In this document: positions 2,129 to 64,000 of the stretch, piece by piece | How positions within the stretch are numbered: the first letter of the stretch is position 1 | Layout of the letters: each line of letters starts with the position of its first letter | Source: Trypanosoma brucei | Lineage: Eukaryota | Length of the DNA stretch: 64,000 nt | Reading direction: 5' to 3' | Assembly: GCA_000002445.1 (NCBI GenBank) | Contig: CP000071.1 | Coordinates: forward strand, 320,001 to 384,000 | Notes under the pieces: generated by a model | What the model was told of the DNA's origin: nothing | The model's input: only the letters and a program-made list of their open reading frames with translations | Databases searched by the model: none | Program-made: the position numbers and the translations under genes

Positions 2129-3311
2129 TAGTGGCGTGCTGCGAGCATATGCACGTGGACGTGACACTAAAGTCTCAACATATCCAAATGGCGACTCGGT
2201 GTCGCTTCGACTGCGCTGTGGAGAGCACGAAGGCCTCCTCCACAAGATATGCGCTACCCTCCGACACATAGTTACATGACTCATAAGAAAATGTGGCGAA
2301 TAGACGCCAGCCCACTTGCCATAACTCATTTTCGTTGCGTTTCTTCTAACAGCTCCCACTATCCTCAATTCCTTTTCCTTTTTCTCTTTTTCCTCCTTTT
2401 CCCACGTCTCTTTCTCCCTACTCTTGCTCTCAACCCTTACTTGCAACTCGATAATCGTGGCGTATCTTCCTACACCGAATCACTGTACCTGTCGCACACG
2501 ATGGAAAACAGAGGAAGGAGGGGGGAAATGGAAAATGAGGATAATAGCAACAATAACAACGGTGATAATGATACAAGTGCTACACAGCACTCTTCACTGT
2601 AGTTTACACCTTGCACCACACACGAATATATCCAACTGTGCCAGGACTCCTGGGAAGAAAGGGAGTTGGTAGTGAAGAGTAACTTCAAATCCCCTTCCGT
2701 AACCGGAAAGGTTACGAAAAAGGAATAAAACAAATGGATTAAAAGGAAGCAAGCAACATATAACCAACCATGAATAAATATGATGAATGCCCACACTCCG
2801 AGCCGTTCCCCCCACCACACCGGGTATGTGCCACTACCTCACTTGTCCCCATTTCCGACACAACTCCTAGTGAGTCTGCGGAAACAATAAAATAAAAAGC
2901 GGCCAAACACCCCGCTTTACGGGTCGATATGCTTCGGATAATGCACACCGCACTGCGCACATGATATTGTTCACGGTGAGGTAACCAAAAACCGGGAAAA
3001 TATAGTGGAAATAAAAAGAGGCTAAAAGTGAGGAATGGACGAAAAAGGGATCAAAAATGGAGGGTAGGCGCTTAACCGCCCGTCAGATCCGTCAGCAACA
3101 GCGATACTTCAAATACAGATAATTAAAAAAACATACCGCCTCTGAGACTAACATTTAAAAATAAAAACAGAACTACAACTGCACGCGTTTTTTTTCCTTT
3201 TTTTTCTTGAAAGGAGAGTGATAGAAGAATGGAAGGGGGGAAACCACTCATAAGACCGTTGTGAACGCAGCCCGTGTCGGCCGGTTCACGCTTGGATGGA
3301 AAAGATAATGC

Positions 3312-3333
3312 ATATATATATATATATATATAT
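3312..3333. repeat. (AT)11 microsatellite.
   Basis: Direct read. Confidence 0.9.
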
Positions 3334-49464: not shown

Positions 49465-52400
49465 TCATCTAATACGTTCCTCGCACCAAGCGCTCATACG
49501 TCTCCATCCTCGCTCCCGAGGATGACTATGCCTCGACCACCAAAACTGGCTAACGCCCCGCATTGTTACATGTTCTCTCACCCTCTGCCATTGTGCCCTC
49601 GCCACCAGGCGCTGTCCAAAACGCATATAACTTCCCACATTATTCGAAGCAGAAGAATGATGCTCAACATCCTCAGCTAACTTCACGGCAATGCGACGCG
49701 CCCCCGGTTCCATGTCCTCCAGTTCAGCACCCTTTTCAAATGAGGGTTCCGACACCGGAATCAGGCGGGAAACAGAAACAAATACAAGTGTCAGCGATGC
49801 AATCAGAATCGATGCAATCCACTGTTCTGCTCTCAACGGTACACACGACATAAACTCTTTTAAGACCTCCACGGCCAAAACCTGAAAACCCACACAACAA
49901 ACCACGATAACCAAAAATGACTTTGAACGAATAAAAAGCCCTTCAAATACATTAACTTCATCATACACTTTGCGGGCATTAAACATATTAAATATGGTAA
50001 AGAAAATAAAAACGTTAAAAACAACAGTTGGAAGTTCCTTCCCCTTCGCCTTTAACCACTTACCACCATATTGGGTTAATAAAAGAACGCTAACAACCTG
50101 AACTACAGTAGCAGTCAGTATTGTCAACCACATTCGACGTGAGACAAGGGGAGCTCGGGGGGAAGACGGACCACGATTTAAGCAATCCTCTGTCGGTTGC
50201 TCCGTTGCGAGAGCGAGGGCCGCAAGTGTGTCCATAAGAAGATTTACCCATAACAGCTGTACAGTCGTTAACGGTGACATATCATGAGCAGACAAAAAAG
50301 AACCAACAAAAACAACAACAATAGAAGCAATATTAATAGAAAGTTGTAACTGCAGGAACTTGCGGATGTTGTCATTCACAGTCCGTCCCCAAACAACGGC
50401 ACGCTGGACAGAACGGAAGTTGTCGTCTAAAAGCACAATATCACCGGACTTCACCGCTATATCCGTGCCACTGCGCATCACAAAACCCACATTTGCAAGA
50501 CGCAGCGCAGGGGCGTCATTTGTCCCATCACCAGTCACAGCAACGACCTCACCACGGAGCATCAGCATCAGTACGAGCAGTTGCTTGTCCAGAGGCTGCG
50601 AACGCCCCATCACCATCATCCGGTCAAGAACAGGCCAGAACTTCTCCATGTTCGCCTCGTCACCATAAGTGTCATACACAAGGTTGCGGAAGTCCTTCCC
50701 AGTGAGCGCAAGATCACCACGCAGTCGATTGTAAATTCCACATTGCCGAGAAATTGCAACGGCTGTGTCGAGATTGTCACCCGTACACATCCTCACTGTC
50801 ACTCCCGCACGCTGGCACATTCGCACAGCATCCACAACCTCTGGACGAAGCGGGTCCTGGATGCCTAATAGTGCAAGCCACACAAATGGTCCCTCGGGTT
50901 CCTCCTCGGGAACCGCACCGTCCGTACCGATACGCCCGTATGCCACGCCGATTGTGCGATTTGCGTCCCCCGCTATTGACCGTATCTGCGCAGTGATCAT
51001 CTCAGTTACCTCCTCCGTCAGCGGCTCCTCACGACCCTCTGACGACAAGTATCGGTTGCACATGCCAAGCACACGATCAGAGCCCCCTTTCACGTACTGC
51101 ATCACAACTCCATCCGCACCTGCAACCACAGCAGTCATAAACTTCCGTTCGCTCGTAAAAGGAAAGATGGCAAAGCCACGGCTGCGGTTTGTCATGCGTA
51201 ACTTCTGGTGTGGAAGCTCCTTGTCATTACAACTACCCGGTACCGATATCAACACGCGATCCACAAAATCCAATATCGCTTGGTCAGTTTTGTTGCCCTT
51301 GTCGGTACGCCACGTCCATCGAGACAGTAAGTCAGACTCAGCTCCCACATTACCTGGTAAAAGCTCCTTCTCACTCGAACTATTCAGTGCAAGACCAAGC
51401 ATTAGTAACGACTGTGCATCACTAGACACACCCTCCAGATTAACCGTGGACGAGGGATCTCCGGGATTCGAGACACGGAACCGCCGCATCCCAATGTAAC
51501 CTTGTACCACAGTCATACGATTCTGAGTCAGCGTCCCAGTTTTATCACTACAAATCTGTGTTGCATTGCCCATTGTCTCACAAGCACACAAACGCCTCAC
51601 CTGATTATTGTCCTTCTGCATCTGGCTCTGTGAGTACGCAAGAGCAATCGTCACCGCCAACGGCAAGCCCTCTGGCACTGCGACGACAACAATCGTCACA
51701 CAAAGTAAAAAAATATCAAGAAACTTTTTTGCGCGTAACTCTTCTTTACCACGAAGAACGAGAAGGATGTAAAACAAAGAAAGCAGAGACATAAGTATCA
51801 CTGCCGCTCCAATTCCTATCCGACCAATAAACCCAGCTAATTCGTCCAATCGCTCCTGCAAGGGAGTCGCCCTCGGTTCACCGTCGAGACGAGATTCCAT
51901 TAGCAGCTTTCCACCAAAAGAAGACTCACCGACGGCGCACGCAAGAATGTAAGCATCCTCAGCCGTACTCACAACAGTCCCAGAAAGTAAGATTGGATGT
52001 TCGGCGCCTTTCTTTTTCAGATCATTCTCGCCAGTCACACTCGACTCATCAACAACAACACTCAAACCACGTACGTATAAACCATCTACAGGGATAACAA
52101 GACCCGGTGACAAGGACACAAGATCACCCACAACAATTTCTGTCACATCCACCGTAACCTTGTGACCATCACGAATGACGGAGATTGGCTGAGCAGAGTT
52201 CTCCTCCACAAGAGCACGGAATTTCAACTCCTTGCGGTAATCCTGAATAGACGATGCTGAGGTTACTGCAATCACGGCCATAAGAATGGCGGTGCCCTCT
52301 ATCCAACCTGTCTTATAGTCAACCTTCTCGTGTCCGGGTTCCGGCACAGTTAACCCGAGGATAAGCGACACACATGCGGCAAGGGTCAAAAGTATGATCA

Positions 52401-52773
52401 TGCGGTCACTCCATGCAGCTTTAAAAATCTTCCAGAATGTCAGCGGAGCCTCCTCAGGAAGCTCATTCCTCCCATACACAGCACGCCGATTCTCTACAGA
52501 AAAAGAGTCGATGCCATCTGTTATACTCGTGCCAAGTCGTTCGGCAATACCCTCAACGCCGCCAAGTTCCTCGTATAGGGGCTTAGCGTCACCGACGCAA
52601 CTGAACAAGGTGTGAAGCTCTCCCTTAATCCCTATGCCGATACGATCTTCGAGCTCCACCTCCACTGCAACGGACCCATCACTTCTGGTAAGGCCAGTGG
52701 ATAAAAACGCTTGCCTCTCTCGACCGCGGCCGGCAAGTGTACCGTAGTTCGAAGTGTCTTTTGGGGAAATCAT
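49465..52773 (-). CDS. PMCA/vacuolar-type Ca2+-transporting P-type ATPase, array copy A (1102 aa), with a C-terminal ~270 aa divergent from copies B and C.
   Basis: P-type ATPase motifs CSDKTGTLTQN (phosphorylation site), MCTGDN, GDGTNDAPAL and PEGLPLAVTIALAYS. The track start at 52776 is GTG; the ATG is at 52773..52771 (verified). The length of 1102 aa matches my recollection of one of the two T. brucei PMC proteins (TbPMC2), which is unconfirmed. Confidence 0.85.
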   Translation of the reverse strand: MISPKDTSNYGTLAGRGRERQAFLSTGLTRSDGSVAVEVELEDRIGIGIKGELHTLFSCVGDAKPLYEELGGVEGIAERLGTSITDGIDSFSVENRRAVYGRNELPEEAPLTFWKIFKAAWSDRMIILLTLAACVSLILGLTVPEPGHEKVDYKTGWIEGTAILMAVIAVTSASSIQDYRKELKFRALVEENSAQPISVIRDGHKVTVDVTEIVVGDLVSLSPGLVIPVDGLYVRGLSVVVDESSVTGENDLKKKGAEHPILLSGTVVSTAEDAYILACAVGESSFGGKLLMESRLDGEPRATPLQERLDELAGFIGRIGIGAAVILMSLLSLFYILLVLRGKEELRAKKFLDIFLLCVTIVVVAVPEGLPLAVTIALAYSQSQMQKDNNQVRRLCACETMGNATQICSDKTGTLTQNRMTVVQGYIGMRRFRVSNPGDPSSTVNLEGVSSDAQSLLMLGLALNSSSEKELLPGNVGAESDLLSRWTWRTDKGNKTDQAILDFVDRVLISVPGSCNDKELPHQKLRMTNRSRGFAIFPFTSERKFMTAVVAGADGVVMQYVKGGSDRVLGMCNRYLSSEGREEPLTEEVTEMITAQIRSIAGDANRTIGVAYGRIGTDGAVPEEEPEGPFVWLALLGIQDPLRPEVVDAVRMCQRAGVTVRMCTGDNLDTAVAISRQCGIYNRLRGDLALTGKDFRNLVYDTYGDEANMEKFWPVLDRMMVMGRSQPLDKQLLVLMLMLRGEVVAVTGDGTNDAPALRLANVGFVMRSGTDIAVKSGDIVLLDDNFRSVQRAVVWGRTVNDNIRKFLQLQLSINIASIVVVFVGSFLSAHDMSPLTTVQLLWVNLLMDTLAALALATEQPTEDCLNRGPSSPRAPLVSRRMWLTILTATVVQVVSVLLLTQYGGKWLKAKGKELPTVVFNVFIFFTIFNMFNARKVYDEVNVFEGLFIRSKSFLVIVVCCVGFQVLAVEVLKEFMSCVPLRAEQWIASILIASLTLVFVSVSRLIPVSEPSFEKGAELEDMEPGARRIAVKLAEDVEHHSSASNNVGSYMRFGQRLVARAQWQRVREHVTMRGVSQFWWSRHSHPRERGWRRMSAWCEERIR

Positions 52774-53425
52774 CACTCCCTCAAAACTTTCCCTCCCACT
52801 CGGTCACACTTCGCGCAACCAAACGTTACTTTATCCTGTACTCGCTTTGGGCCACTCAACAACAATCCAGAAATATCACCTACCTGTATCGCAAATGACA
52901 CCTAACGTTATTCTCATTATTTTTCAAAATTGCATTTGATATAATTGTTACAAGTCAATGAAGGGAAAGAAAGAGACAGGGAAAGGGAGTGACAGAAGTG
53001 TTCCTAAGTGGTTAATTGAACATGACTTTTGAGTCACGTAAGGAAAGAAAGGTGAACACAAAAGCATCCACTGGTCTTCCCCCTCCCTTTCTACACCTAA
53101 TATTCCCTAATCGGCCTCTTCCGTTAATATTACCTGCGCGTCACCGAAAGTACAGAAGGGTGAAGTGGGGCCCCTTGCACAGACGTATGCGAACTGCCGG
53201 TTCACAGGCACACCATGAAACCATTAACCTTATCCTGTTTCTTACTTCACACAACAATTTCTCTTACGCTTACTTTCAGTCCGGCTGCTTCATCCTCATG
53301 AAGAAGCAGTTATGCACTTCCGCATTACTTGGTAATATTTGGTTGTTGTTATTGCTCCCCTTCGCTTTCATTTATCACCAATGACCACAGGCTGTTCACT
53401 GTAGAGTTGCTTCTCAGGTACATAC

Positions 53426-54421
53426 CTACAGGTCACGTAGGAGTGATGAAATGAGAAGGGTACCATCGCACAGAGCCTCTAGATGCTGAGCCTGTTCCCT
53501 AAGTTGCACCAGTGCCAACATTGTGTCCACTCCACGTGCGGGGGGTACATTGTTTTCATCTCGCTGGTTTCTGGAAGTTTCCCGACTGAGTTTGCCCTCC
53601 AAATCACTTAAGTTTCGCTGTACAGACTCAAGGAGGGCAACCTTGTAATCAGCCATAGAATCAGAGTGATGTACTGTACTGTTGCTTGGCAACGGTGCGA
53701 TATCAATGCCGTTTAGGCAAAAAAGTTGATAAGCATCCACCTCCACCTCCACCTTCACCTCGCGAAGCACACCTTGCTTGGGGACCGAACACGCACGCAG
53801 AAGCCGTGCTTCTTCCTGCATCCCACTCTTCTTGTCAGTCTTTTTGGTTTTTTTGTTCTTTCTGGAAAAGTCGAGAAATGCATCCGTCGGCACGAACGCA
53901 CGAAGGTACAACTTACCCATTAGGCCGGTACGGAAGGGGTCGTAGACAAGAAGCACACTTGGGTGACCGTCAATTGCCAAGTTCGCCAACCGATCAGCTG
54001 TCACAACCGAGTAGGGATCATTCACACAAGCACTGGAAACAATGAAGTAACCTACGCTATAACTGTCTAGGCACTCCTTACGCAGCATCTCCTTTACTTT
54101 CTCGTACATCTTCTGCTGCTGTTTACTCTCGGCCGTGTCATCCCGCTCATCCTCTGCGTCACCAGAAGCTCCCAGGCTGGGAAGAACACTCGTGATGAGA
54201 ATCGTATCCCCTTGTTGAACTCCACAAAGACGTCCGCCGACGGCACTGTGGCACGTGGCATCCTGCGAGAAGCTGCCGAGATGTGTGAGGGCGGGAAATG
54301 ATATGCGAACTTTCTTCGCTGGCGGCAGTTCCACGTGAGAATCACTATCCTTCGCGAATATCGATTCGCCAGTGGGGGCGTCGTCGGAAACGACCTGAAC
54401 CTGCGGAAAACCGTGAAACAT
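53426..54421 (-). CDS. MPN (JAB/Mov34) domain protein with a C-terminal coiled-coil tail, likely translation initiation factor eIF3 subunit h; array copy 1.
   Basis: MPN-like core (GDTILITSVLPS...GYFIVSS...HPSVLLVYDP) and a C-terminal helical region. ATG at 54421 verified. The eIF3h assignment is from fold pattern and memory of a duplicated eIF3h at this locus, so it is an inference. Confidence 0.6.
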   Translation of the reverse strand: MFHGFPQVQVVSDDAPTGESIFAKDSDSHVELPPAKKVRISFPALTHLGSFSQDATCHSAVGGRLCGVQQGDTILITSVLPSLGASGDAEDERDDTAESKQQQKMYEKVKEMLRKECLDSYSVGYFIVSSACVNDPYSVVTADRLANLAIDGHPSVLLVYDPFRTGLMGKLYLRAFVPTDAFLDFSRKNKKTKKTDKKSGMQEEARLLRACSVPKQGVLREVKVEVEVDAYQLFCLNGIDIAPLPSNSTVHHSDSMADYKVALLESVQRNLSDLEGKLSRETSRNQRDENNVPPARGVDTMLALVQLREQAQHLEALCDGTLLISSLLRDL

Positions 54422-55581
54422 TTTCGAGCAAGCGGCTCAAACGTGAAGCGATGGACCCTATCGGTGCTTATTTTAATACCTTAAAACCTGGAAGCCAATG
54501 AAGCAGTTTGTGTCCACATGGGGCGACGGCAGATAATAGCAACATTGAAATTGACAAGAAGAATAGGATGAAAGGAAATTTGTAACAATGAGCAAGACAG
54601 AAGAGAAGCTGCGGCATGCACAACTACGACGGTGGACCCATACACCAGCACACGAATCTCTGATAAATCTTGATCAATTTATAATACTCCGTAAACATTT
54701 TCCGCTCCCGAAGCTTCCCGGAGGTTTCGATAATGGCATACCTTAACGTGTCCTGTGCCCTTTCCTTCACCCCTCCGGAGGGTAAGAAAATAAAGCATCA
54801 AACACCAACCATCAAACCTAAAAAGAATAGTAAAATGATGACAAGAGGGGGGATAGTGTTAGGACATTTAAGATTTACACAAGAAGATGAAAACGCTGGT
54901 TGCTGTGAACAGAAAAAAAACAGAAAACGTATAAAATGGGACGAGTGAGCGGAAGCTAAAACAGTCGCTACGCAGCCCCTTCAATTTAAAAAGAGGAGTA
55001 CGCAGAAGAATATGTAAGTGCGAAGCCCATTAGGAGCGTATGATACATAACATATTATGTATGCAAAAAGTAAAATAGCGAAAAATAACTTCTTTTCTCC
55101 TAAAAAAGGGAAAAAGAAAGCCAATGAAAAGAGAGAAGAGAAAAATGAACGGTGTCGTACACATTTTTTGTATCATTTTCTTTTTGATATTCTCTGTTGC
55201 CCCTCCTCGATGTCACGCGGAGCAAAGGGCCCACCATTCTTATGCATCCTCAGCCATCCACTCCAGTCCCTCACATCAACTGTCATACCACCGCAAAACA
55301 GGGACGAAACGCTTCAAATAAAAGATCTGAGAAATAACGAAATGGGGGGGGTGGAAATGATGCGGTAGGGCAGCAACGGTGGTGTTACCAAAAAATGACC
55401 GTGTGGAAGGAATCCACGCCAAGCTTCCGCACCGCAATTTATTATTAGAAAGAACGCAAAATAACAATAAAAGAGCTTACGAACGGGACTGGAGAACTCT
55501 TCATCCGATCCAAACAAATCATTTAGGAGGAAAAAGTTATTAAAAGATGAGGGGTAAGGTCAGGGTATAAAAGACAAACAT

Positions 55582-58500
55582 TCATACCATCCTTAATGTG
55601 TCATAAAGTTGTCGGGTGGAGCCCCGTTTCATATCGCGATCCGTCCATGCGCGGCGGAATGCATTAACAACACGAGGTTTCTTCACATGCTCTGCCTGAA
55701 GTCTACGCCACCGCGACTGCGCACGCAACCGACCCGCAAGAAGCGAAGAGGCGTCACTTGTCCCGTCCGTCTCCCGCTGCCTCTGCTCCGCAGCCACCGA
55801 AACATCTTTGATGAGGCGAGAGGCACTACCGTCGACATTTCTACTATCTGGTATCAGTGCAAACACAGGTTCCCTGATGCTCACCACCCGGCTCAAAATA
55901 CCCACAACAAGTGAAATGGCAGCAATACCGATACTTACACCCCATTGCTTGATCGAAAGGGGACGGACACCCATAAAGTCGTTAAAGGTGCAGATGGCCA
56001 ACACTTGAAACGCAATGCACGAACCGACGACAACAATAAAAAATACCGACCGACCCATCCCTTCAAACACATTAAGTTCTCGGTACAATTTGCGACAATT
56101 TAACATGTGGAATATAGTGCCGAAAACAAAAACGTTGAATAGAAATGTTCGGTGCAAATGCTTGCCATTCTCATCCTCCCCAAAATACTTTCCACCAAAC
56201 GTGAGCACAGAAAAGAAAGCAGTTAGCTGAACTGTGGCAACGGAAAAAATTGTGAACCACATTCGACGTGAGACAAGGGGAGCTCGGGGGGAAGACGGAC
56301 CACGATTTAAGCAATCCTCTGTCGGTTGCTCCGTTGCGAGAGCAGGGGCCGCAAGTGTGTCCATAAGAAGATTTACCCATAACAGCTGTACAGTCGTTAA
56401 CGGTGAAGACTTACCCTCCCTCACGAGGGTACCTACGACGGTTAATGAAAAACACACCAAATTCACCGTGAACTGTAACTGCAGGAACTTGCGGATGTTG
56501 TCATTCACAGTCCGCCCCCAAACAACGGCACGCTGGACGGAACGGAAGTTGTCGTCTAAAAGCACAATATCACCGGACTTCACCGCTATATCCGTGCCAC
56601 TGCGCATCACAAAACCCACATTTGCAAGACGCAGCGCAGGGGCGTCATTTGTCCCATCACCAGTCACAGCAACGACCTCACCACGGAGCATCAGCATCAG
56701 TACGAGCAGTTGCTTGTCCAGAGGCTGCGAACGCCCCATCACCATCATCCGGTCAAGAACAGGCCAGAACTTCTCCATGTTCGCCTCGTCACCATAAGTG
56801 TCATACACAAGGTTGCGGAAGTCCTTCCCAGTGAGCGCAAGATCACCACGCAGTCGATTGTAAATTCCACATTGCCGAGAAATTGCAACGGCTGTGTCGA
56901 GATTGTCACCCGTACACATCCTCACTGTCACTCCCGCACGCTGGCACATTCGCACAGCATCCACAACCTCTGGACGAAGCGGGTCCTGGATGCCTAATAG
57001 TGCAAGCCACACAAATGGTCCCTCGGGTTCCTCCTCGGGAACCGCACCGTCCGTACCGATACGCCCGTATGCCACGCCGATTGTGCGATTTGCGTCCCCC
57101 GCTATTGACCGTATCTGCTCAGTGATCATCTCAGTTACCTCCTCCGTCAGCGGCTCCTCACGACCCTCTGACGACAAGTATCGGTTGCACATGCCAAGCA
57201 CACGATCAGAGCCCCCTTTCACGTACTGCATCACAACTCCATCCGCACCTGCAACCACAGCAGTCATAAACTTCCGTTCGCTCGTAAAAGGAAAGATGGC
57301 AAAGCCACGGCTGCAGTTTGTCATGCGTAACTTCTGGTGTGGAAGCTCCTTGTCATTACAACTACCCGGTACCGATATCAACACGCGATCCACAAAATCC
57401 AATATCGCTTGGTCAGTTTTGTTGCCCTTGTCGGTACGCCACGTCCATCGAGACAGTAAGTCAGACTCAGCTCCCACATTACCTGGTAAAAGCTCCTTCT
57501 CACTCGAACTATTCAGTGCAAGACCAAGCATTAGTAACGACTGTGCATCACTAGACACACCCTCCAGATTAACCGTGGACGAGGGATCTCCGGGATTCGA
57601 GACACGGAACCGCCGCATCCCAATGTAACCTTGTACCACAGTCATACGATTCTGAGTCAGCGTCCCAGTTTTATCACTGCAAATCTGTGTTGCATTGCCC
57701 ATTGTCTCACAAGCACACAAACGCCTCACCTGATTATTGTCCTTCTGCATCTGGCTCTGTGAGTACGCAAGAGCAATCGTCACCACCAATGGCAAGCCCT
57801 CTGGCACTGCAATAACAACAATCGTCACACAAAGTAGGAGAAAGTTCAGGAACTTCTTCGGGTAAAATTGTTGTTTGTTTGTAGCAATTCGCTCAATTTC
57901 GATGATACAAAGTACTATGAAAAAAAGAACGGCGGATATAATTGCAACTCGAGCGATGAAGCTAACTAAGTTTTGCGACCGCTCCTGCAAGGGAGTCGCC
58001 CTCGGTTCACCGTCGAGACGAGATTCCATTAGCAGCTTTCCACCAAAAGAAGACTCACCGACGGCGCACGCAAGAATGTAAGCATCCTCAGCCGTACTCA
58101 CAACAGTCCCAGAAAGTAAGATTGGATGTTCGGCGCCTTTCTTTTTCAGATCATTCTCGCCAGTCACACTCGACTCATCAACAACAACACTCAAACCACG
58201 TACGTATAAACCATCTACAGGGATAACAAGACCCGGTGACAAGGACACAAGATCACCCACAACAATTTCTGTCACATCCACCGTAACCTTGTGACCATCA
58301 CGAATGACGGAGATTGGCTGAGCAGAGTTCTCCTCCACAAGAGCACGGAATTTCAACTCCTTGCGGTAATCCTGAATAGACGATGCTGAGGTTACTGCAA
58401 TCACGGCCATAAGAATGGCGGTGCCCTCTATCCAACCTGTCTTATAGTCAACCTTCTCGTGTCCGGGTTCCGGCACAGTTAACCCGAGGATAAGCGACAC

Positions 58501-58902
58501 ACATGCGGCAAGGGTCAAAAGTATGATCATGCGGTCACTCCATGCAGTTTTAAAAATCTTCCAGAATGTCAGCGGAGCCTCCTCAGGAAGCTCATTCCTC
58601 CCATACACAGCACGCCGATTCTCTACAGAAAAAGAGTCGATGCCATCTGTTATACTCGTGCCAAGTCGTTCGGCAATACCCTCAACGCCGCCAAGTTCCT
58701 CGTATAGGGGCTTAGCGTCACCGACGCAACTGAACAAGGTGTGAAGCTCTCCCTTAATCCCTATGCCGATACGATCTTCGAGCTCCACCTCCACTGCAAC
58801 GGACCCATCACTTCTGGTAAGGCCAGTGGATAAAAACGCTTGCTTCTCTCGACCGCGGCCGGCAAGTGTACCGTAGTTCGAAGTGTCTTTTGGGGAAATC
58901 AT
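55582..58902 (-). CDS. PMCA/vacuolar-type Ca2+-transporting P-type ATPase, array copy B (1106 aa).
   Basis: Same P-type motifs as copy A. ATG at 58902..58900 (verified; the track start at 58905 is GTG). Nearly identical to copy A over about two thirds of its length, but with a different TM3/TM4 patch and C-terminal region. The length of 1106 aa matches my recollection of TbPMC1, which is unconfirmed. Confidence 0.85.
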   Translation of the reverse strand: MISPKDTSNYGTLAGRGREKQAFLSTGLTRSDGSVAVEVELEDRIGIGIKGELHTLFSCVGDAKPLYEELGGVEGIAERLGTSITDGIDSFSVENRRAVYGRNELPEEAPLTFWKIFKTAWSDRMIILLTLAACVSLILGLTVPEPGHEKVDYKTGWIEGTAILMAVIAVTSASSIQDYRKELKFRALVEENSAQPISVIRDGHKVTVDVTEIVVGDLVSLSPGLVIPVDGLYVRGLSVVVDESSVTGENDLKKKGAEHPILLSGTVVSTAEDAYILACAVGESSFGGKLLMESRLDGEPRATPLQERSQNLVSFIARVAIISAVLFFIVLCIIEIERIATNKQQFYPKKFLNFLLLCVTIVVIAVPEGLPLVVTIALAYSQSQMQKDNNQVRRLCACETMGNATQICSDKTGTLTQNRMTVVQGYIGMRRFRVSNPGDPSSTVNLEGVSSDAQSLLMLGLALNSSSEKELLPGNVGAESDLLSRWTWRTDKGNKTDQAILDFVDRVLISVPGSCNDKELPHQKLRMTNCSRGFAIFPFTSERKFMTAVVAGADGVVMQYVKGGSDRVLGMCNRYLSSEGREEPLTEEVTEMITEQIRSIAGDANRTIGVAYGRIGTDGAVPEEEPEGPFVWLALLGIQDPLRPEVVDAVRMCQRAGVTVRMCTGDNLDTAVAISRQCGIYNRLRGDLALTGKDFRNLVYDTYGDEANMEKFWPVLDRMMVMGRSQPLDKQLLVLMLMLRGEVVAVTGDGTNDAPALRLANVGFVMRSGTDIAVKSGDIVLLDDNFRSVQRAVVWGRTVNDNIRKFLQLQFTVNLVCFSLTVVGTLVREGKSSPLTTVQLLWVNLLMDTLAAPALATEQPTEDCLNRGPSSPRAPLVSRRMWFTIFSVATVQLTAFFSVLTFGGKYFGEDENGKHLHRTFLFNVFVFGTIFHMLNCRKLYRELNVFEGMGRSVFFIVVVGSCIAFQVLAICTFNDFMGVRPLSIKQWGVSIGIAAISLVVGILSRVVSIREPVFALIPDSRNVDGSASRLIKDVSVAAEQRQRETDGTSDASSLLAGRLRAQSRWRRLQAEHVKKPRVVNAFRRAWTDRDMKRGSTRQLYDTLRMV

Positions 58903-59554
58903 CACTCCCTCAAAACTTTCCCTCCCACTCGGTCACACTTCGCGCAACCAAACGTTACTTTATCCTGTACTCGCTTTGGGCCACTCAACAACAATCCAGA
59001 AATATCACCTACCTGTATCGCAAATGACACCTAACGTTATTCTCATTATTTTTCAAAACTGCATTTGATATAATTGTTACAAGTCAATGAAGGGAAAGAA
59101 AGAGACAGGGAAAGGGAGTGACAGAAGTGTTCCTAAGTGGTTAATTGAACATGACTTTTGAGTCACGTAAGGAAAGAAAGGTGAACACAAAAGCATCCAC
59201 TGGTCTTCCCCCTCCCTTTCTACACCTAATATTCCCTAATCGGCCTCTTCCGTTAATATTACCTGCGCGTCACCGAAAGTACAGAAGGGTGAAGTGGGGC
59301 CCCTTGCACAGACGTATGCGAACTGCCGGTTCACAGGCACACCATGAAACCATTAACCTTATCCTGTTTCTTACTTCACACAACAATTTCTCTTACGCTT
59401 ACTTTCAGTCCGGCTGCTTCATCCTCATGAAGAAGCAGTTATGCACTTCCGCATTACTTGGTAATATTTGGTTGTTGTTATTGCTCCCCTTCGCTTTCAT
59501 TTATCACCAATGACCACAGGCTGTTCACTGTAGAGTTGCTTCTCAGGTACATAC

Positions 59555-60550
59555 CTACAGGTCACGTAGGAGTGATGAAATGAGAAGGGTACCATCGCAC
59601 AGAGCCTCTAGATGCTGAGCCTGTTCCCTAAGTTGCACCAGTGCCAACATTGTGTCCACTCCACGTGCGGGGGGTACATTGTTTTCATCTCGCTGGTTTC
59701 TGGAAGTTTCCCGACTGAGTTTGCCCTCCAAATCACTTAAGTTTCGCTGTACAGACTCAAGGAGGGCAACCTTGTAATCAGCCATAGAATCAGAGTGATG
59801 TACTGTACTGTTGCTTGGCAACGGTGCGATATCAATGCCGTTTAGGCAAAAAAGTTGATAAGCATCCACCTCCACCTCCACCTTCACCTCGCGAAGCACA
59901 CCTTGCTTGGGGACCGAACACGCACGCAGAAGCCGTGCTTCTTCCTGCATCCCACTCTTCTTGTCAGTCTTTTTGGTTTTTTTGTTCTTTCTGGAAAAGT
60001 CGAGAAATGCATCCGTCGGCACGAACGCACGAAGGTACAACTTACCCATTAGGCCGGTACGGAAGGGGTCGTAGACAAGAAGCACACTTGGGTGACCGTC
60101 AATTGCCAAGTTCGCCAACCGATCAGCTGTCACAACCGAGTAGGGATCATTCACACAAGCACTGGAAACAATGAAGTAACCTACGCTATAACTGTCTAGG
60201 CACTCCTTACGCAGCATCTCCTTTACTTTCTCGTACATCTTCTGCTGCTGTTTACTCTCGGCCGTGTCATCCCGCTCATCCTCTGCGTCACCAGAAGCTC
60301 CCAGGCTGGGAAGAACACTCGTGATGAGAATCGTATCCCCTTGTTGAACTCCACAAAGACGTCCGCCGACGGCACTGTGGCACGTGGCATCCTGCGAGAA
60401 GCTGCCGAGATGTGTGAGGGCGGGAAATGATATGCGAACTTTCTTCGCTGGCGGCAGTTCCACGTGAGAATCACTATCCTTCGCGAATATCGATTCGCCA
60501 GTGGGGGCGTCGTCGGAAACGACCTGAACCTGCGGAAAACCGTGAAACAT
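59555..60550 (-). CDS. MPN-domain protein (eIF3h-like), array copy 2, with protein identical to 53426..54421.
   Basis: Identical 331-aa translation. ATG at 60550 verified. The longer overlapping ORF 60223..60729(-) is in another frame and is an artefact. Confidence 0.6.
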   Translation of the reverse strand: MFHGFPQVQVVSDDAPTGESIFAKDSDSHVELPPAKKVRISFPALTHLGSFSQDATCHSAVGGRLCGVQQGDTILITSVLPSLGASGDAEDERDDTAESKQQQKMYEKVKEMLRKECLDSYSVGYFIVSSACVNDPYSVVTADRLANLAIDGHPSVLLVYDPFRTGLMGKLYLRAFVPTDAFLDFSRKNKKTKKTDKKSGMQEEARLLRACSVPKQGVLREVKVEVEVDAYQLFCLNGIDIAPLPSNSTVHHSDSMADYKVALLESVQRNLSDLEGKLSRETSRNQRDENNVPPARGVDTMLALVQLREQAQHLEALCDGTLLISSLLRDL

Positions 60551-61715
60551 TTTCGAGCAAGCGGCTCAAACGTGAAGCGATGGACCCTATCGGTGCTTCT
60601 CTCAACATACGCACCTAAAACCCGGAAGCCAATGAAGCAGTTTGTGTCCACATGGGGCGACGGCAGATAATAGCAACATTGAAATTGACAAGAAGAATAG
60701 GATGAAAGGAAATTTGTAACAATGAGCAAGACAGAAGAGAAGCTGCGGCATGCACAACTACGACGGTGGACCCATACACCAGCACACGAATCTCTGATAA
60801 ATCTTGATCAATTTATCATACTCCGTAAACATTTTCCGCTCCCGAAGCTTCCCGGAGGTTTCGATAATGGCATACCTTAACGTGTCCTGTGCCCTTTCCT
60901 TCACCCCTCCGGAGGGTAAGAAAATAAAGCATCAAACACCAACCATCAAACCTAAAAAGAATAGTAAAATGATGACAAGAGGGGGGATAGTGTTAGGACA
61001 TTTAAGATTTACACAAGAAGATGAAAACGCTGGTTGCTGTGAACAGAAAAAAAACAGAAAACGTATAAAATGGGACGAGTGAGCGGAAGCTAAAACAGTC
61101 GCTACGCAGCCCCTTCAATTTAAAAAGAGGAGTACGCAGAAGAATATGTAAGTGCGAAGCCCATTAGGAGCGTATGATACATAACATATTATGTATGCAA
61201 AAAGTAAAATAGCGAAAAATAACTTCTTTTCTCCTAAAAAAGGGAAAAAGAAAGCCAATGAAAAGAGAGAAGAGAAAAATGAACGGTGTCGTACACATTT
61301 TTTGTATCATTTTCTTTTTGATATTCTCTGTTGCCCCTCCTCGATGTCACGCGGAGCAAAGGGCCCACCATTCTTATGCATCCTCAGCCATCCACTCCAG
61401 TCCCTCACATCAACTGTCATACCACCGCAAAACAGGGACGAAACGCTTCAAATAAAAGATCTGAGAAATAACGAAATGGGGGGGGTGGAAATGATGCGGT
61501 AGGGCAGCAACGGTGGTGTTACCAAAAAATGACCGTGTGGAAGGAATCCACGCCAAGCTTCCGCACCGCAATTTATTATTAGAAAGAACGCAAAATAACA
61601 ATAAAAGAGCTTACGAACGGGACTGGAGAACTCTTCATCCGATCCAAACAAATCATTTAGGAGGAAAAAGTTATTAAAAGATGAGGGGTAAGGTCAGGGT
61701 ATAAAAGACAAACAT

Positions 61716-64000
61716 TCATACCATCCTTAATGTGTCATAAAGTTGTCGGGTGGAGCCCCGTTTCATATCGCGATCCGTCCATGCGCGGCGGAATGCATTA
61801 ACAACACGAGGTTTCTTCACATGCTCTGCCTGAAGTCTACGCCACCGCGACTGCGCACGCAACCGACCCGCAAGAAGCGAAGAGGCGTCACTTGTCCCGT
61901 CCGTCTCCCGCTGCCTCTGCTCCGCAGCCACCGAAACATCTTTGATGAGGCGAGAGGCACTACCGTCGACATTTCTACTATCTGGTATCAGTGCAAACAC
62001 AGGTTCCCTGATGCTCACCACCCGGCTCAAAATACCCACAACAAGTGAAATGGCAGCAATACCGATACTTACACCCCATTGCTTGATCGAAAGGGGACGG
62101 ACACCCATAAAGTCGTTAAAGGTGCAGATGGCCAACACTTGAAACGCAATGCACGAACCGACGACAACAATAAAAAATACCGACCGACCCATCCCTTCAA
62201 ACACATTAAGTTCTCGGTACAATTTGCGACAATTTAACATGTGGAATATAGTGCCGAAAACAAAAACGTTGAATAGAAATGTTCGGTGCAAATGCTTGCC
62301 ATTCTCATCCTCCCCAAAATACTTTCCACCAAACGTGAGCACAGAAAAGAAAGCAGTTAGCTGAACTGTGGCAACGGAAAAAATTGTGAACCACATTCGA
62401 CGTGAGACAAGGGGAGCTCGGGGGGAAGACGGACCACGATTTAAGCAATCCTCTGTCGGTTGCTCCGTTGCGAGAGCGAGCGCCGCAAGTGTGTCCATAA
62501 GAAGATTTACCCATAACAGCTGTACAGTCGTTAACGGTGAAGACTTACCCTCCCTCACGAGGGTACCTACAACAGTTACTAGAAAAGAAACAACGTTCAC
62601 GGTTAATTGCAGCTGCAGGAACTTGCGGATGTTGTCATTCACAGTCCGCCCCCAAACAACGGCACGCTGGACAGAACGGAAGTTGTCGTCTAAAAGCACA
62701 ATATCACCGGACTTCACCGCTATATCCGTGCCACTGCGCATCACAAAACCCACATTTGCAAGACGCAGCGCAGGGGCGTCATTTGTCCCATCACCAGTCA
62801 CAGCAACGACCTCACCACGGAGCATCAGCATCAGTACGAGCAGTTGCTTGTCCAGAGGCTGCGAACGCCCCATCACCATCATCCGGTCAAGAACAGGCCA
62901 GAACTTCTCCATGTTCGCCTCGTCACCATAAGTGTCATACACAAGGTTGCGGAAGTCCTTCCCAGTGAGCGCAAGATCACCACGCAGTCGATTGTAAATT
63001 CCACATTGCCGAGAAATTGCAACGGCTGTGTCGAGATTGTCACCCGTACACATCCTCACTGTCACTCCCGCACGCTGGCACATTCGCACAGCATCCACAA
63101 CCTCTGGACGAAGCGGGTCCTGGATGCCTAATAGTGCAAGCCACACAAATGGTCCCTCGGGTTCCTCCTCGGGAACCGCACCGTCCGTACCGATACGCCC
63201 GTATGCCACGCCGATTGTGCGATTTGCGTCCCCCGCTATTGACCGTATCTGCTCAGTGATCATCTCAGTTACCTCCTCCGTCAGCGGCTCCTCACGACCC
63301 TCTGACGACAAGTATCGGTTGCACATGCCAAGCACACGATCAGAGCCCCCTTTCACGTACTGCATCACAACTCCATCCGCACCTGCAACCACAGCAGTCA
63401 TAAACTTCCGTTCGCTCGTAAAAGGAAAGATGGCAAAGCCACGGCTGCGGTTTGTCATGCGTAACTTCTGGTGTGGAAGCTCCTTGTCATTACAACTACC
63501 CGGTACCGATATCAACACGCGATCCACAAAATCCAATATCGCTTGGTCAGTTTTGTTGCCCTTGTCGGTACGCCACGTCCATCGAGACAGTAAGTCAGAC
63601 TCAGCTCCCACATTACCTGGTAAAAGCTCCTTCTCACTCGAACTATTCAGTGCAAGACCAAGCATTAGTAACGACTGTGCATCACTAGACACACCCTCCA
63701 GATTAACCGTGGACGAGGGATCTCCGGGATTCGAGACACGGAACCGCCGCATCCCAATGTAACCTTGTACCACAGTCATACGATTCTGAGTCAGCGTCCC
63801 AGTTTTATCACTGCAAATCTGTGTTGCATTGCCCATTGTCTCACAAGCACACAAACGCCTCACCTGATTATTGTCCTTCTGCATCTGGTTCTGTGAGTAC
63901 GCAAGAGCAATCGTCACCGCCAACGGCAAGCCCTCTGGCACTGCGACGACAACAATCGTCACACAAAGTAGGAGAAAGTTCAGGAACTTCTTCGGGTAAA
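61716..64000 (-). CDS. PMCA/vacuolar-type Ca2+-ATPase, array copy C, 5'-truncated by the window edge (the N-terminal about 350 codons lie beyond 64000).
   Basis: The reading frame is open to the window end. The track's M at 63962 is an internal GTG, not a start. The C-terminal region matches copy B, and an internal segment around 63900..63960 matches copy A. Confidence 0.8.
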   Translation of the reverse strand, partial: YPKKFLNFLLLCVTIVVVAVPEGLPLAVTIALAYSQNQMQKDNNQVRRLCACETMGNATQICSDKTGTLTQNRMTVVQGYIGMRRFRVSNPGDPSSTVNLEGVSSDAQSLLMLGLALNSSSEKELLPGNVGAESDLLSRWTWRTDKGNKTDQAILDFVDRVLISVPGSCNDKELPHQKLRMTNRSRGFAIFPFTSERKFMTAVVAGADGVVMQYVKGGSDRVLGMCNRYLSSEGREEPLTEEVTEMITEQIRSIAGDANRTIGVAYGRIGTDGAVPEEEPEGPFVWLALLGIQDPLRPEVVDAVRMCQRAGVTVRMCTGDNLDTAVAISRQCGIYNRLRGDLALTGKDFRNLVYDTYGDEANMEKFWPVLDRMMVMGRSQPLDKQLLVLMLMLRGEVVAVTGDGTNDAPALRLANVGFVMRSGTDIAVKSGDIVLLDDNFRSVQRAVVWGRTVNDNIRKFLQLQLTVNVVSFLVTVVGTLVREGKSSPLTTVQLLWVNLLMDTLAALALATEQPTEDCLNRGPSSPRAPLVSRRMWFTIFSVATVQLTAFFSVLTFGGKYFGEDENGKHLHRTFLFNVFVFGTIFHMLNCRKLYRELNVFEGMGRSVFFIVVVGSCIAFQVLAICTFNDFMGVRPLSIKQWGVSIGIAAISLVVGILSRVVSIREPVFALIPDSRNVDGSASRLIKDVSVAAEQRQRETDGTSDASSLLAGRLRAQSRWRRLQAEHVKKPRVVNAFRRAWTDRDMKRGSTRQLYDTLRMV

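What the first reader, a model, noticed from the sequence alone, without database searches (positions are those of the whole stretch)
63890..63975. ATPase copy C is itself chimeric, with a copy-A-type segment joined to a copy-B-type TM3/TM4 patch
At 63910..63962 copy C reads tcaccgccaacggcaag...gcgacgacaac (VVVAVPEGLPLAVTIALAYSQ), as copy A does at 51651..51697. Copy B has tcaccaccaatggcaag...gcaataacaac (VVIAVPEGLPLVV). From about 63966 copy C switches to the copy-B version (ggagaaagttcaggaacttcttcgggtaaa). Copy C also has a private change (SQNQ versus SQSQ; ggttctg versus ggctctg at ~63888). A recombination breakpoint therefore lies within about 15 bp around 63962..63968.
Basis: seen in the sequence. 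Interest (0 to 1): 0.5.

Follow-up and report, generated by a model that had tools for sequence, protein, structure and literature searches.

The report
Shared gene-conversion boundary in trypanosome calcium-pump genes
The three tandem calcium-pump genes of Trypanosoma brucei are patchworks made by recombination between copies; the junction seen in copy C is real, but it is old, shared with other strains, and an ordinary result of concerted evolution.

Summary
The window is Trypanosoma brucei brucei TREU927. Copies A, B and C match the three annotated tandem PMCA-type Ca2+-ATPases exactly (an uncharacterised 1102-aa copy, TbPMC1 and TbPMC2).

Copy C equals A and differs from B at 5 sites in 63919-63948. 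It equals B and differs from A at 14 sites in 63971-63999. The switch falls in a 22-bp stretch identical in all three copies (63949-63970). It is not chance (max-chi2 permutation P=0.002; five B-private sites within 30 bp, scan P=4e-5).

- The same junction (B-like TM3 core beside A-like TM4) occurs in four other gene copies from three other T. brucei-group genomes.
- The five "A-like" bases are the family consensus.
- B (TbPMC1) is the outlier. Its TM4 cluster is one of several linked B-specific micro-patches.
- The "private" SQNQ change is not private to C.

All three genes are mosaics. Divergent modules (N-terminus, TM3 cassette, TM5 patch, C-terminal third) sit in blocks homogenised by gene conversion or unequal crossover. 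This is a further instance of concerted evolution already described for T. brucei tandem arrays. Interest is low.

The parts
61716..64000 (-). Copy C, a PMCA-type Ca2+-ATPase gene cut by the window end. It is the 3' 2285 nt of TbPMC2 ('vacuolar-type Ca2+-ATPase 2', AAZ12891, 1080 aa).
   Evidence: The translation equals the tail of P0122 with no difference.
55582..58902 (-). Copy B, which is TbPMC1 ('vacuolar-type Ca2+-ATPase 1', AAZ12889, 1106 aa).
   Evidence: Exact match to P0125. Pfam Cation_ATPase_N, E1-E2_ATPase, Cation_ATPase, Hydrolase and Cation_ATPase_C all hit.
49465..52773 (-). Copy A, the third, uncharacterised PMCA paralogue (AAZ12887, 1102 aa).
   Evidence: Exact match to P0121.
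63971..64000 (-). Visible end of C's TM3 cassette core. C equals B, and A differs at 14 of 30 positions.
63949..63970 (-). 22 bp identical in A, B and C. This is the interval that must contain the switch point.
   Evidence: gene positions 1067-1088, 0/22 in every pair.
63919..63948 (-). TM4 (PEGLP) segment where C equals A and the family consensus, and B has 5 private transitions.
57785..57814 (-). B-specific TM4 micro-patch: GTC>GTT, GTC>ATT, CCG>CCA, GCG>GTG, giving V>I and A>V in VVVAVPEGLPLAV.
   Evidence: At DNA level it is unique to B among the 8 copies compared. At protein level it is confined to the four TbPMC1-type sequences (P0001, P0125, P0127, P0128) among 129 homologues.
57837..57977 (-). 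B's TM3 cassette. Core 57837-57947 differs from A at 51% of positions and from C-type at 2 of 111. The 5' edge 57948-57977 is divergent three ways.
   Evidence: Hydropathy places TM3 at aa 309-343 and TM4 at aa 346-382.
51708..51848 (-). A's alternative TM3 cassette (alpha type).
62617..63970 (-). Central homogenised block in C, from TM4 through the cytoplasmic P and N domains. It differs from A at 4 and from B at 3 of 1302 positions outside the TM4 cluster.
62569..62616 (-). TM5 micro-patch where the three copies all differ (A-B 23, A-C 18, B-C 15 of 48).
61716..62568 (-). 3' module (TM5/6 to the C-terminus). C and B differ at 3 of 853 positions, and A differs from both at about 41%.
63889..63889 (-). 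Ser/Asn polymorphism (AGC/AAC). It is shared with copies in other subspecies, so it is not private to C.
58906..61715 (-). B-C spacer carrying a 331-aa gene (59555-60550). It duplicates the A-B spacer 52777-55581 (331-aa gene at 53426-54421).
   Evidence: 99.57% identity over 2810 bp.

Best explanation
The feature is the 3' boundary of a divergent 'TM3 cassette' inside a three-gene tandem array of PMCA-type Ca2+-ATPase genes that evolves in concert.

Homologous recombination between the direct repeats (gene conversion and unequal crossing-over) has made most of each gene nearly identical. A few modules stay distinct: the N-terminus, the TM3 cassette, a TM5 patch and the C-terminal third.

In C-type genes, homogenisation with A-type genes runs right up to the cassette at 63970|63971. 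In B (TbPMC1), a further 5-nt TM4 micro-patch has escaped homogenisation or was acquired. It belongs to a linked set of B-specific patches in TM3, TM4, TM5 and TM6. C therefore looks 'A-like then B-like'.

The junction is an old haplotype shared across T. brucei subspecies, not a recent event in this copy.

Shown here: the mosaic pattern, its statistical support, its presence in other genomes, and that B is the outlier.

Inferred: the recombination mechanism, the direction of transfer, and that selection on membrane helices or loss of homology at the cassette edge stops the conversion tracts.
For: - Identity of the genes.
- Tandem 6.13-kb units, with spacers 99.6% identical.
- Abrupt switches in pairwise divergence along the gene. 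A against C-type is 56/111 in the TM3 core, then 0/52, then 4-9/1302. B against C-type differences are concentrated in three micro-patches (15/30, 5/30, 15/48), against 2/111, 3/1302 and 3/853 in the neighbouring segments.
- Breakpoint test P=0.002 and cluster test P=4e-5.
- The same junction in L001-up, L003 and L002-dn.
- B's TM4 and TM6 variants are found only in TbPMC1-type sequences among 129 homologues.
- B has A's 5' end and upstream spacer plus C's 3' end and downstream spacer, as an unequal crossover would give.
- The array is listed as a tandem array in a survey that found widespread concerted evolution and region-dependent phylogenetic affinities in T. brucei arrays (PMC1855330).
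Against: - Polarity is unresolved. No donor for B's micro-patches was found. With only T. brucei-group DNA, I cannot tell whether the C lineage lost a B-like TM4 by conversion from A or the B lineage gained it.
- Copy C's DNA beyond 64000 was not available for TREU927. It was inferred from the TREU927 protein and from a 99.5%-identical gene of another subspecies.
- Other assemblies (T. b. gambiense, T. equiperdum OVI) may have collapsed or misjoined repeats. The junction itself spans under 100 bp and is less exposed to that.
- No direct evidence was obtained that selection maintains the cassettes.
Confidence: 0.78

Rival explanations
1. A discrete gene-conversion event copied A-type sequence into copy C of this genome, ended at about 63962-63968, and overwrote a previously B-like TM4.
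For: C equals A at all 5 TM4 sites and equals B at the next 14 sites. The breakpoint is significant. A lies in the same array and is a plausible donor.
Against: The identical junction is present in three other genomes and at a different array position, so it is not private or recent to this copy. The A-like state is also the universal consensus. At most, the event happened once in an ancestor of all C-type cassettes.
Confidence: 0.12
2. The five differences are independent point mutations in B, that is isolated SNPs, and no recombination is involved.
For: All five are transitions. B-private single differences do occur elsewhere (62673, 63449).
Against: Five in 30 bp against 2 in 1280 bp gives Poisson 1.8e-9 and scan P=4e-5. 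B carries two further micro-patches that are 31-50% divergent from C-type, inside sequence that is otherwise about 99.7% identical. Recent mutation cannot produce that.
Confidence: 0.03
3. Assembly or sequencing artefact. Reads from near-identical repeats were mis-joined, creating a false chimera in copy C.
For: The repeats are over 99% identical across kilobases. The assemblies differ in copy number: 1, 2 or 3.
Against: The junction spans under 100 bp. It recurs in independent assemblies and in an independently deposited T. equiperdum PMCA sequence (P0126). B's variant recurs in three independent GenBank entries (P0001, P0127, P0128).
Confidence: 0.03

Closest known systems
Concerted evolution and gene conversion in T. 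brucei tandem gene arrays (Jackson 2007, BMC Evol Biol 7:54, PMC1855330)
   Same: Tandem duplicates in a polycistronic unit. Most of the sequence is homogenised, variation is retained in patches, and different regions give different affinities. This very array is listed in that paper's supplementary table as array 65, 'Tb08.29O4.300/vacuolar-type Ca2+-ATPase 1', chromosome 8.
   Different: The paper's main text does not mention this array. The supplementary table lists it as 2 units and, in what I could read, gives no breakpoints. The cassette map and cross-subspecies comparison here are specific to this locus.
TbPMC1 and TbPMC2 (Luo et al. 2004, J Biol Chem 279:14427, as summarised in PMC6884021)
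   Same: B and C are these genes. The review reports three copies on chromosome 8, TbPMC1 in acidocalcisomes, TbPMC2 in the plasma membrane, and a single copy in T. b. gambiense.
   Different: The passages of the two reviews I searched by gene name or locus tag do not describe the mosaic structure or the TbPMC1-specific TM4 and TM6 substitutions. I could not read the 2004 paper itself.
Segmental gene conversion that builds mosaic VSG genes in T. brucei
   Same: Short-tract homologous recombination between diverged paralogues produces mosaics (my own knowledge; mentioned in the abstract of PMC7015903).
   Different: That process involves subtelomeric antigen genes and is selected for diversity during infection. 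Here a housekeeping ion-pump array in a chromosome core is mostly being homogenised.

Membership tests
P2B (PMCA-type) Ca2+-ATPase | P-type ATPase domain architecture (N-terminal cation ATPase, E1-E2 actuator/TM, P/N domains, C-terminal TM bundle). | tested here: met
   Pfam PF00690, PF00122, PF13246, PF00702 and PF00689 are all above their cut-offs for copy B.
P2B (PMCA-type) Ca2+-ATPase | Catalytic and ion-site motifs: DKTGT phosphorylation site, PEGLP in TM4, TGDN, GDGxNDxP. | tested here: met
   All are present in A, B and the visible part of C. B has V>I and A>V flanking PEGLP, and L>P in the TM6 motif.
P2B (PMCA-type) Ca2+-ATPase | Identity with characterised members. | tested here: met
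   A, B and C match P0121, P0125 and P0122 exactly. Best homologues are named PMCA or vacuolar-type Ca2+-ATPases.
P2B (PMCA-type) Ca2+-ATPase | Ca2+ transport activity. | not testable with these tools
   Reported for TbPMC1 and TbPMC2 by yeast complementation, according to PMC6884021.
Gene-conversion mosaic in a concertedly evolving tandem array | Direct tandem paralogues with highly similar flanks. | tested here: met
   Unit spacing is 6129 and 6134 bp. Spacers are 99.57% identical over 2810 bp.
Gene-conversion mosaic in a concertedly evolving tandem array | Abrupt, statistically supported switches of nearest relative along the gene. | tested here: met
   Segment table. Max-chi2 P=0.002 and scan P=4e-5.
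Gene-conversion mosaic in a concertedly evolving tandem array | Identified donor, recipient and direction of transfer. | tested here: inconclusive
   Outgroup proteins show that the A/C state at TM4 is the consensus and B's state is derived. No outgroup DNA and no donor for B's patches were obtained.
   The same junction is in L001-up, L003 and L002-dn.
Unequal-crossover origin of the middle copy B | B shares its 5' end and upstream flank with A, and its 3' end and downstream flank with C. | tested here: met
   Positions 1-200: A-B 1/200, with C-type unalignable or divergent. Positions 2469-3321: B-C 3/853 against A-B 344/828. The spacers are duplicated.
Unequal-crossover origin of the middle copy B | Reciprocal single-copy hybrid (C 5' end with A 3' end) found in nature. 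| tested here: inconclusive
   T. b. gambiense DAL972 has exactly such a single gene and no 331-aa spacer gene. A collapsed assembly would look the same.

The most novel reading that the evidence does not exclude
TbPMC1 (copy B) may carry a linked set of short, highly divergent patches in the ion-pathway helices: the start of TM3, TM4 (A>V beside PEGLP), TM5, and TM6 (L>P in DTLAALALATE). Under this reading, selection holds these patches against constant homogenisation by its neighbours, and they mark functional specialisation of the acidocalcisomal pump. The N-terminal, TM3-cassette and C-terminal modules would then reassort among T. brucei subspecies by crossover in the homogenised blocks, giving arrays of 1, 2 or 3 genes with different module combinations.
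Probability: 0.3. Interest if true: 0.4.

Novelty: new member of a known kind. Interest (0 to 1): 0.15.

Why it matters
It matters mostly as a caution. These three genes are over 99% identical across 1.3 kb blocks and differ only in short cassettes. Read mapping, RNAi, tagging and copy-number calls for TbPMC1, TbPMC2 and the third copy can therefore cross-react or be misassigned. Assemblies can also collapse the array into a false or real hybrid.

Biologically, the map shows which short membrane segments distinguish the acidocalcisomal pump from the plasma-membrane pump. That gives a small, testable set of residues for swap experiments. As a case of recombination it adds nothing new in principle.

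Tried and rejected
- Exact-protein look-ups meant to fetch TREU927 DNA beyond 64000 failed, both for copy B and for the full copy-C protein P0122. I used the neighbouring 331-aa gene and the T. b. gambiense protein to get related loci instead.
- My first whole-unit alignment listing was too verbose to use, and one statistics script timed out. Both were redone.
- Jackson 2007 main text has no mention of the ATPase array. Only the supplementary table lists it.
- I checked whether the genes downstream of A (352 aa and 351 aa) are related to the 331-aa spacer gene or to each other. They are not, and there is no DNA similarity either. The repeat unit therefore ends at A's stop codon.
- I considered that the second-group T. 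brucei PMCA (Tb927.10.11620) might be the donor of B's micro-patches, but did not test it. None of the 129 retrieved homologues carries B's TM4 motif.
- I considered and rejected chance, point mutation and assembly artefact. See the rival explanations.

Full report
**What the window is.**
Every ORF of 250 aa or more lies on the minus strand, as in a kinetoplastid polycistronic unit. Three large ORFs are P-type ATPases: 49465-52776, 55582-58905 and 61716 to beyond 64000. They carry the full Pfam architecture. Their best homologues are Trypanosoma brucei 'vacuolar-type/plasma-membrane Ca2+-ATPases'.

Cluster members and direct comparison show exact identity:
- Copy A matches AAZ12887 (1102 aa).
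- Copy B matches AAZ12889, 'Ca2+-ATPase 1' or TbPMC1 (1106 aa).
- The visible 760 residues of copy C match the tail of AAZ12891, 'Ca2+-ATPase 2' or TbPMC2 (1080 aa).

All three are T. b. brucei TREU927 proteins. A review states that T. brucei has three such genes on chromosome 8, that TbPMC1 is acidocalcisomal and that TbPMC2 is in the plasma membrane (PMC6884021). The locus tags Tb927.8.1160.1180 and .1200 are used for them in PMC6027440. Mapping the tags to A, B and C by order is my inference.

The units repeat every 6129 and 6134 bp. The two 2.8-kb spacers, each carrying a 331-aa gene, are 99.57% identical.

**Checking the observation.**
The quoted strings are present. In a three-way alignment:
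- C equals A and differs from B at 63919, 63924, 63945, 63947 and 63948.
- C equals B and differs from A at 14 sites in 63971-63999.
- C differs from both at 63889.

Between the two runs lie 22 bp (63949-63970) that are identical in all three copies, so the switch cannot be placed more finely than that.

A maximum chi-square scan over the informative sites of 62620-64000 picks exactly this point (chi2 13.8, permutation P=0.002). Five B-private sites within 30 bp, against 2 in the other 1280 bp of the central block, is far beyond chance (Poisson 1.8e-9; scan permutation 4e-5).

Hydropathy and the PEGLP motif confirm that the region is TM3 (aa 309-343) and TM4 (aa 346-382).

**Extending beyond the window.**
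TREU927 DNA past 64000 could not be fetched. Three related loci were obtained through the 331-aa spacer gene and the T. b. gambiense protein:
- L001, T. b. equiperdum: two ATPase genes.
- L002, T. equiperdum: the contig starts inside the upstream gene.
- L003, T. b. gambiense DAL972: one ATPase gene.

The upstream gene of L001 is 99.5% identical to C. Its protein agrees with the TREU927 copy-C protein through the cassette. I used it as a proxy for the missing 5' third of C.

**The mosaic map, in positions of gene B.**

| Gene positions | Region | Pattern |
|---|---|---|
| 1-200 | N-terminus | A-B 1/200; C-type quite different (MHPLESPQEH... against MISPKDTSNY...) |
| 201-925 | | All nearly identical (at most 2/725) |
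| 926-955 | Start of TM3 | Three-way divergent: A-B 13, A-C-type 9, B-C-type 15 of 30. C-type keeps the ancestral RLDELA residues with synonymous changes; B reads RSQNLVS |
| 956-1066 | TM3 core and loop | A against B or C-type 56-57/111; B-C-type 2/111 |
| 1067-1088 | | Identical in all |
| 1089-1118 | TM4 | B-private 5/30; every other copy identical |
| 1119-2420 | Central block | At most 12/1302 in any pair |
| 2421-2468 | TM5 | Three-way divergent (23, 18, 15 of 48) |
| 2469-3321 | To the C-terminus | A against B or C 344/828; B-C 3/853 |

All three genes are therefore patchworks of a few divergent modules embedded in homogenised blocks.

**Whose event is it?**

The five bases that separate B from C are found in B alone among the eight DNA copies. 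At protein level, VVIAVPEGLPLVVT occurs only in the four TbPMC1-type sequences among 129 retrieved homologues. VVVAVPEGLPLAVT is the consensus from Bodo to fungi. The same four sequences alone carry L>P in the TM6 motif (AAPALATE).

The five changes are GTC>GTT, GTC>ATT, CCG>CCA and GCG>GTG. Three are silent-type and two are replacement changes, and all are transitions.

The four proteins with B's TM4 also carry B's TM3-edge, TM5 and TM6 variants. The five C-type cassette proteins carry none of them. B is therefore the outlier at TM4. Its cluster is one of several linked B-specific micro-patches, up to 50% divergent, sitting in otherwise 99.7%-identical sequence.

What remains true of C is the A-versus-C contrast. 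Divergence falls from 14/30 to 0/52 at 63970|63971. Two genes whose TM3 cassettes are 51% different cannot share identical TM4 codons and a near-identical 1.3-kb block without homogenisation. This boundary is a genuine conversion or homogenisation limit, but an old one, shared across subspecies.

**The 'private' change.**
AAC (Asn) at 63889 is also in both genes of L001 and in L003. Asn is the residue in T. vivax and T. melophagium. It is a shared polymorphism.

**Mechanism (inferred).**
Homologous recombination between direct repeats explains the pattern. Gene conversion homogenises the blocks. Tracts stop where homology collapses at cassette edges, or converted variants are removed by selection on the membrane helices.

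Unequal crossover explains the copy number. B has A's N-terminus and upstream spacer, and C's C-terminal module and downstream spacer. That is the hybrid expected from an A x C-type exchange that turns a two-gene array (as in L001) into three.

The T. b. gambiense gene has the reciprocal architecture: C-type 5' end, C-type cassette, A-type TM5 and 3' end, and no spacer gene. An assembly collapse would look the same. The review also lists T. b. gambiense as single-copy.

In T. equiperdum L002 the cassettes sit in the opposite genes. The A-position gene has the C-type cassette, and the upstream gene has the A-type cassette with a C-type 3' end. This is consistent with module reassortment or with misassembly.

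The GenBank TbPMC2 entry Q8I919 (P0127) has the C-type N-terminus but all B-type patches. It is either a real allele or a PCR chimera.

**Relation to what is known.**
Jackson (2007) surveyed T. brucei tandem arrays. The survey reported widespread concerted evolution, retained variation, and inconsistent affinities between regions of an array (PMC1855330). Its supplementary table lists this array as number 65, although the main text does not discuss it.

The present junction is thus one more instance of a described phenomenon in annotated, functionally studied genes. The specific cassette map, and the TbPMC1-only substitutions next to the Ca2+-site motifs, are not described in the parts of the papers I could read. 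They are modest in significance.

**Verdict.**
The finding is ordinary concerted evolution of a tandem array, and its interest is low.

Noticed in passing
window 57785-57814 (TM4) and 56344-56346 (TM6 codon CCT), copy B: TbPMC1 alone carries V>I and A>V flanking the PEGLP Ca2+-site motif, and L>P in the conserved TM6 motif DTLAALALATE. Neither variant is seen in any other of the 129 PMCA homologues retrieved.
   Followed up: partly
window 62569-62616 (C), 56435-56482 (B), 50306-50353 (A): A 48-nt TM5 patch where all three copies differ from each other by 31-48%. It sits at the edge of the homogenised central block and is a second small three-way mosaic zone.
   Followed up: partly
L003:10001-13234 (T. 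b. gambiense DAL972): A single ATPase gene with C-type N-terminus and TM3 cassette but A-type TM5 and C-terminus, and no 331-aa spacer gene. It is either the deletion product of an unequal crossover or a collapsed assembly of the array.
   Followed up: partly
L002:1-2960 and L002:5249-8557 (T. equiperdum): The TM3 cassettes are in swapped positions relative to TREU927 and L001. The A-position gene carries the C-type cassette, and the upstream gene carries the A-type cassette with a C-type 3' module.
   Followed up: partly
P0001, P0127, P0128 (GenBank AAL55433, AAL55434, AAP46286) against copy B aa 747 and 770-778: These deposited TbPMC sequences read K and HGYSGEVRC where the genome reads T and TDIAVKSGD. 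The 9-residue run looks like a compensated frameshift, that is a sequencing error in the older entries.
   Followed up: no
P0127 (Q8I919, published TbPMC2): It has the C-type N-terminus but B-type TM3 edge, TM4, TM5 and TM6 patches, unlike the TREU927 TbPMC2. It is either an allele showing further module shuffling or a PCR chimera of TbPMC1 and TbPMC2.
   Followed up: no
window 1-64000: All 17 ORFs of 250 aa or more, except one embedded overlap, are on the minus strand, as expected for a single polycistronic transcription unit. The repeat unit ends exactly at A's stop codon, and the genes downstream of A (352 aa, 351 aa) are unrelated to the spacer gene.
   Followed up: partly
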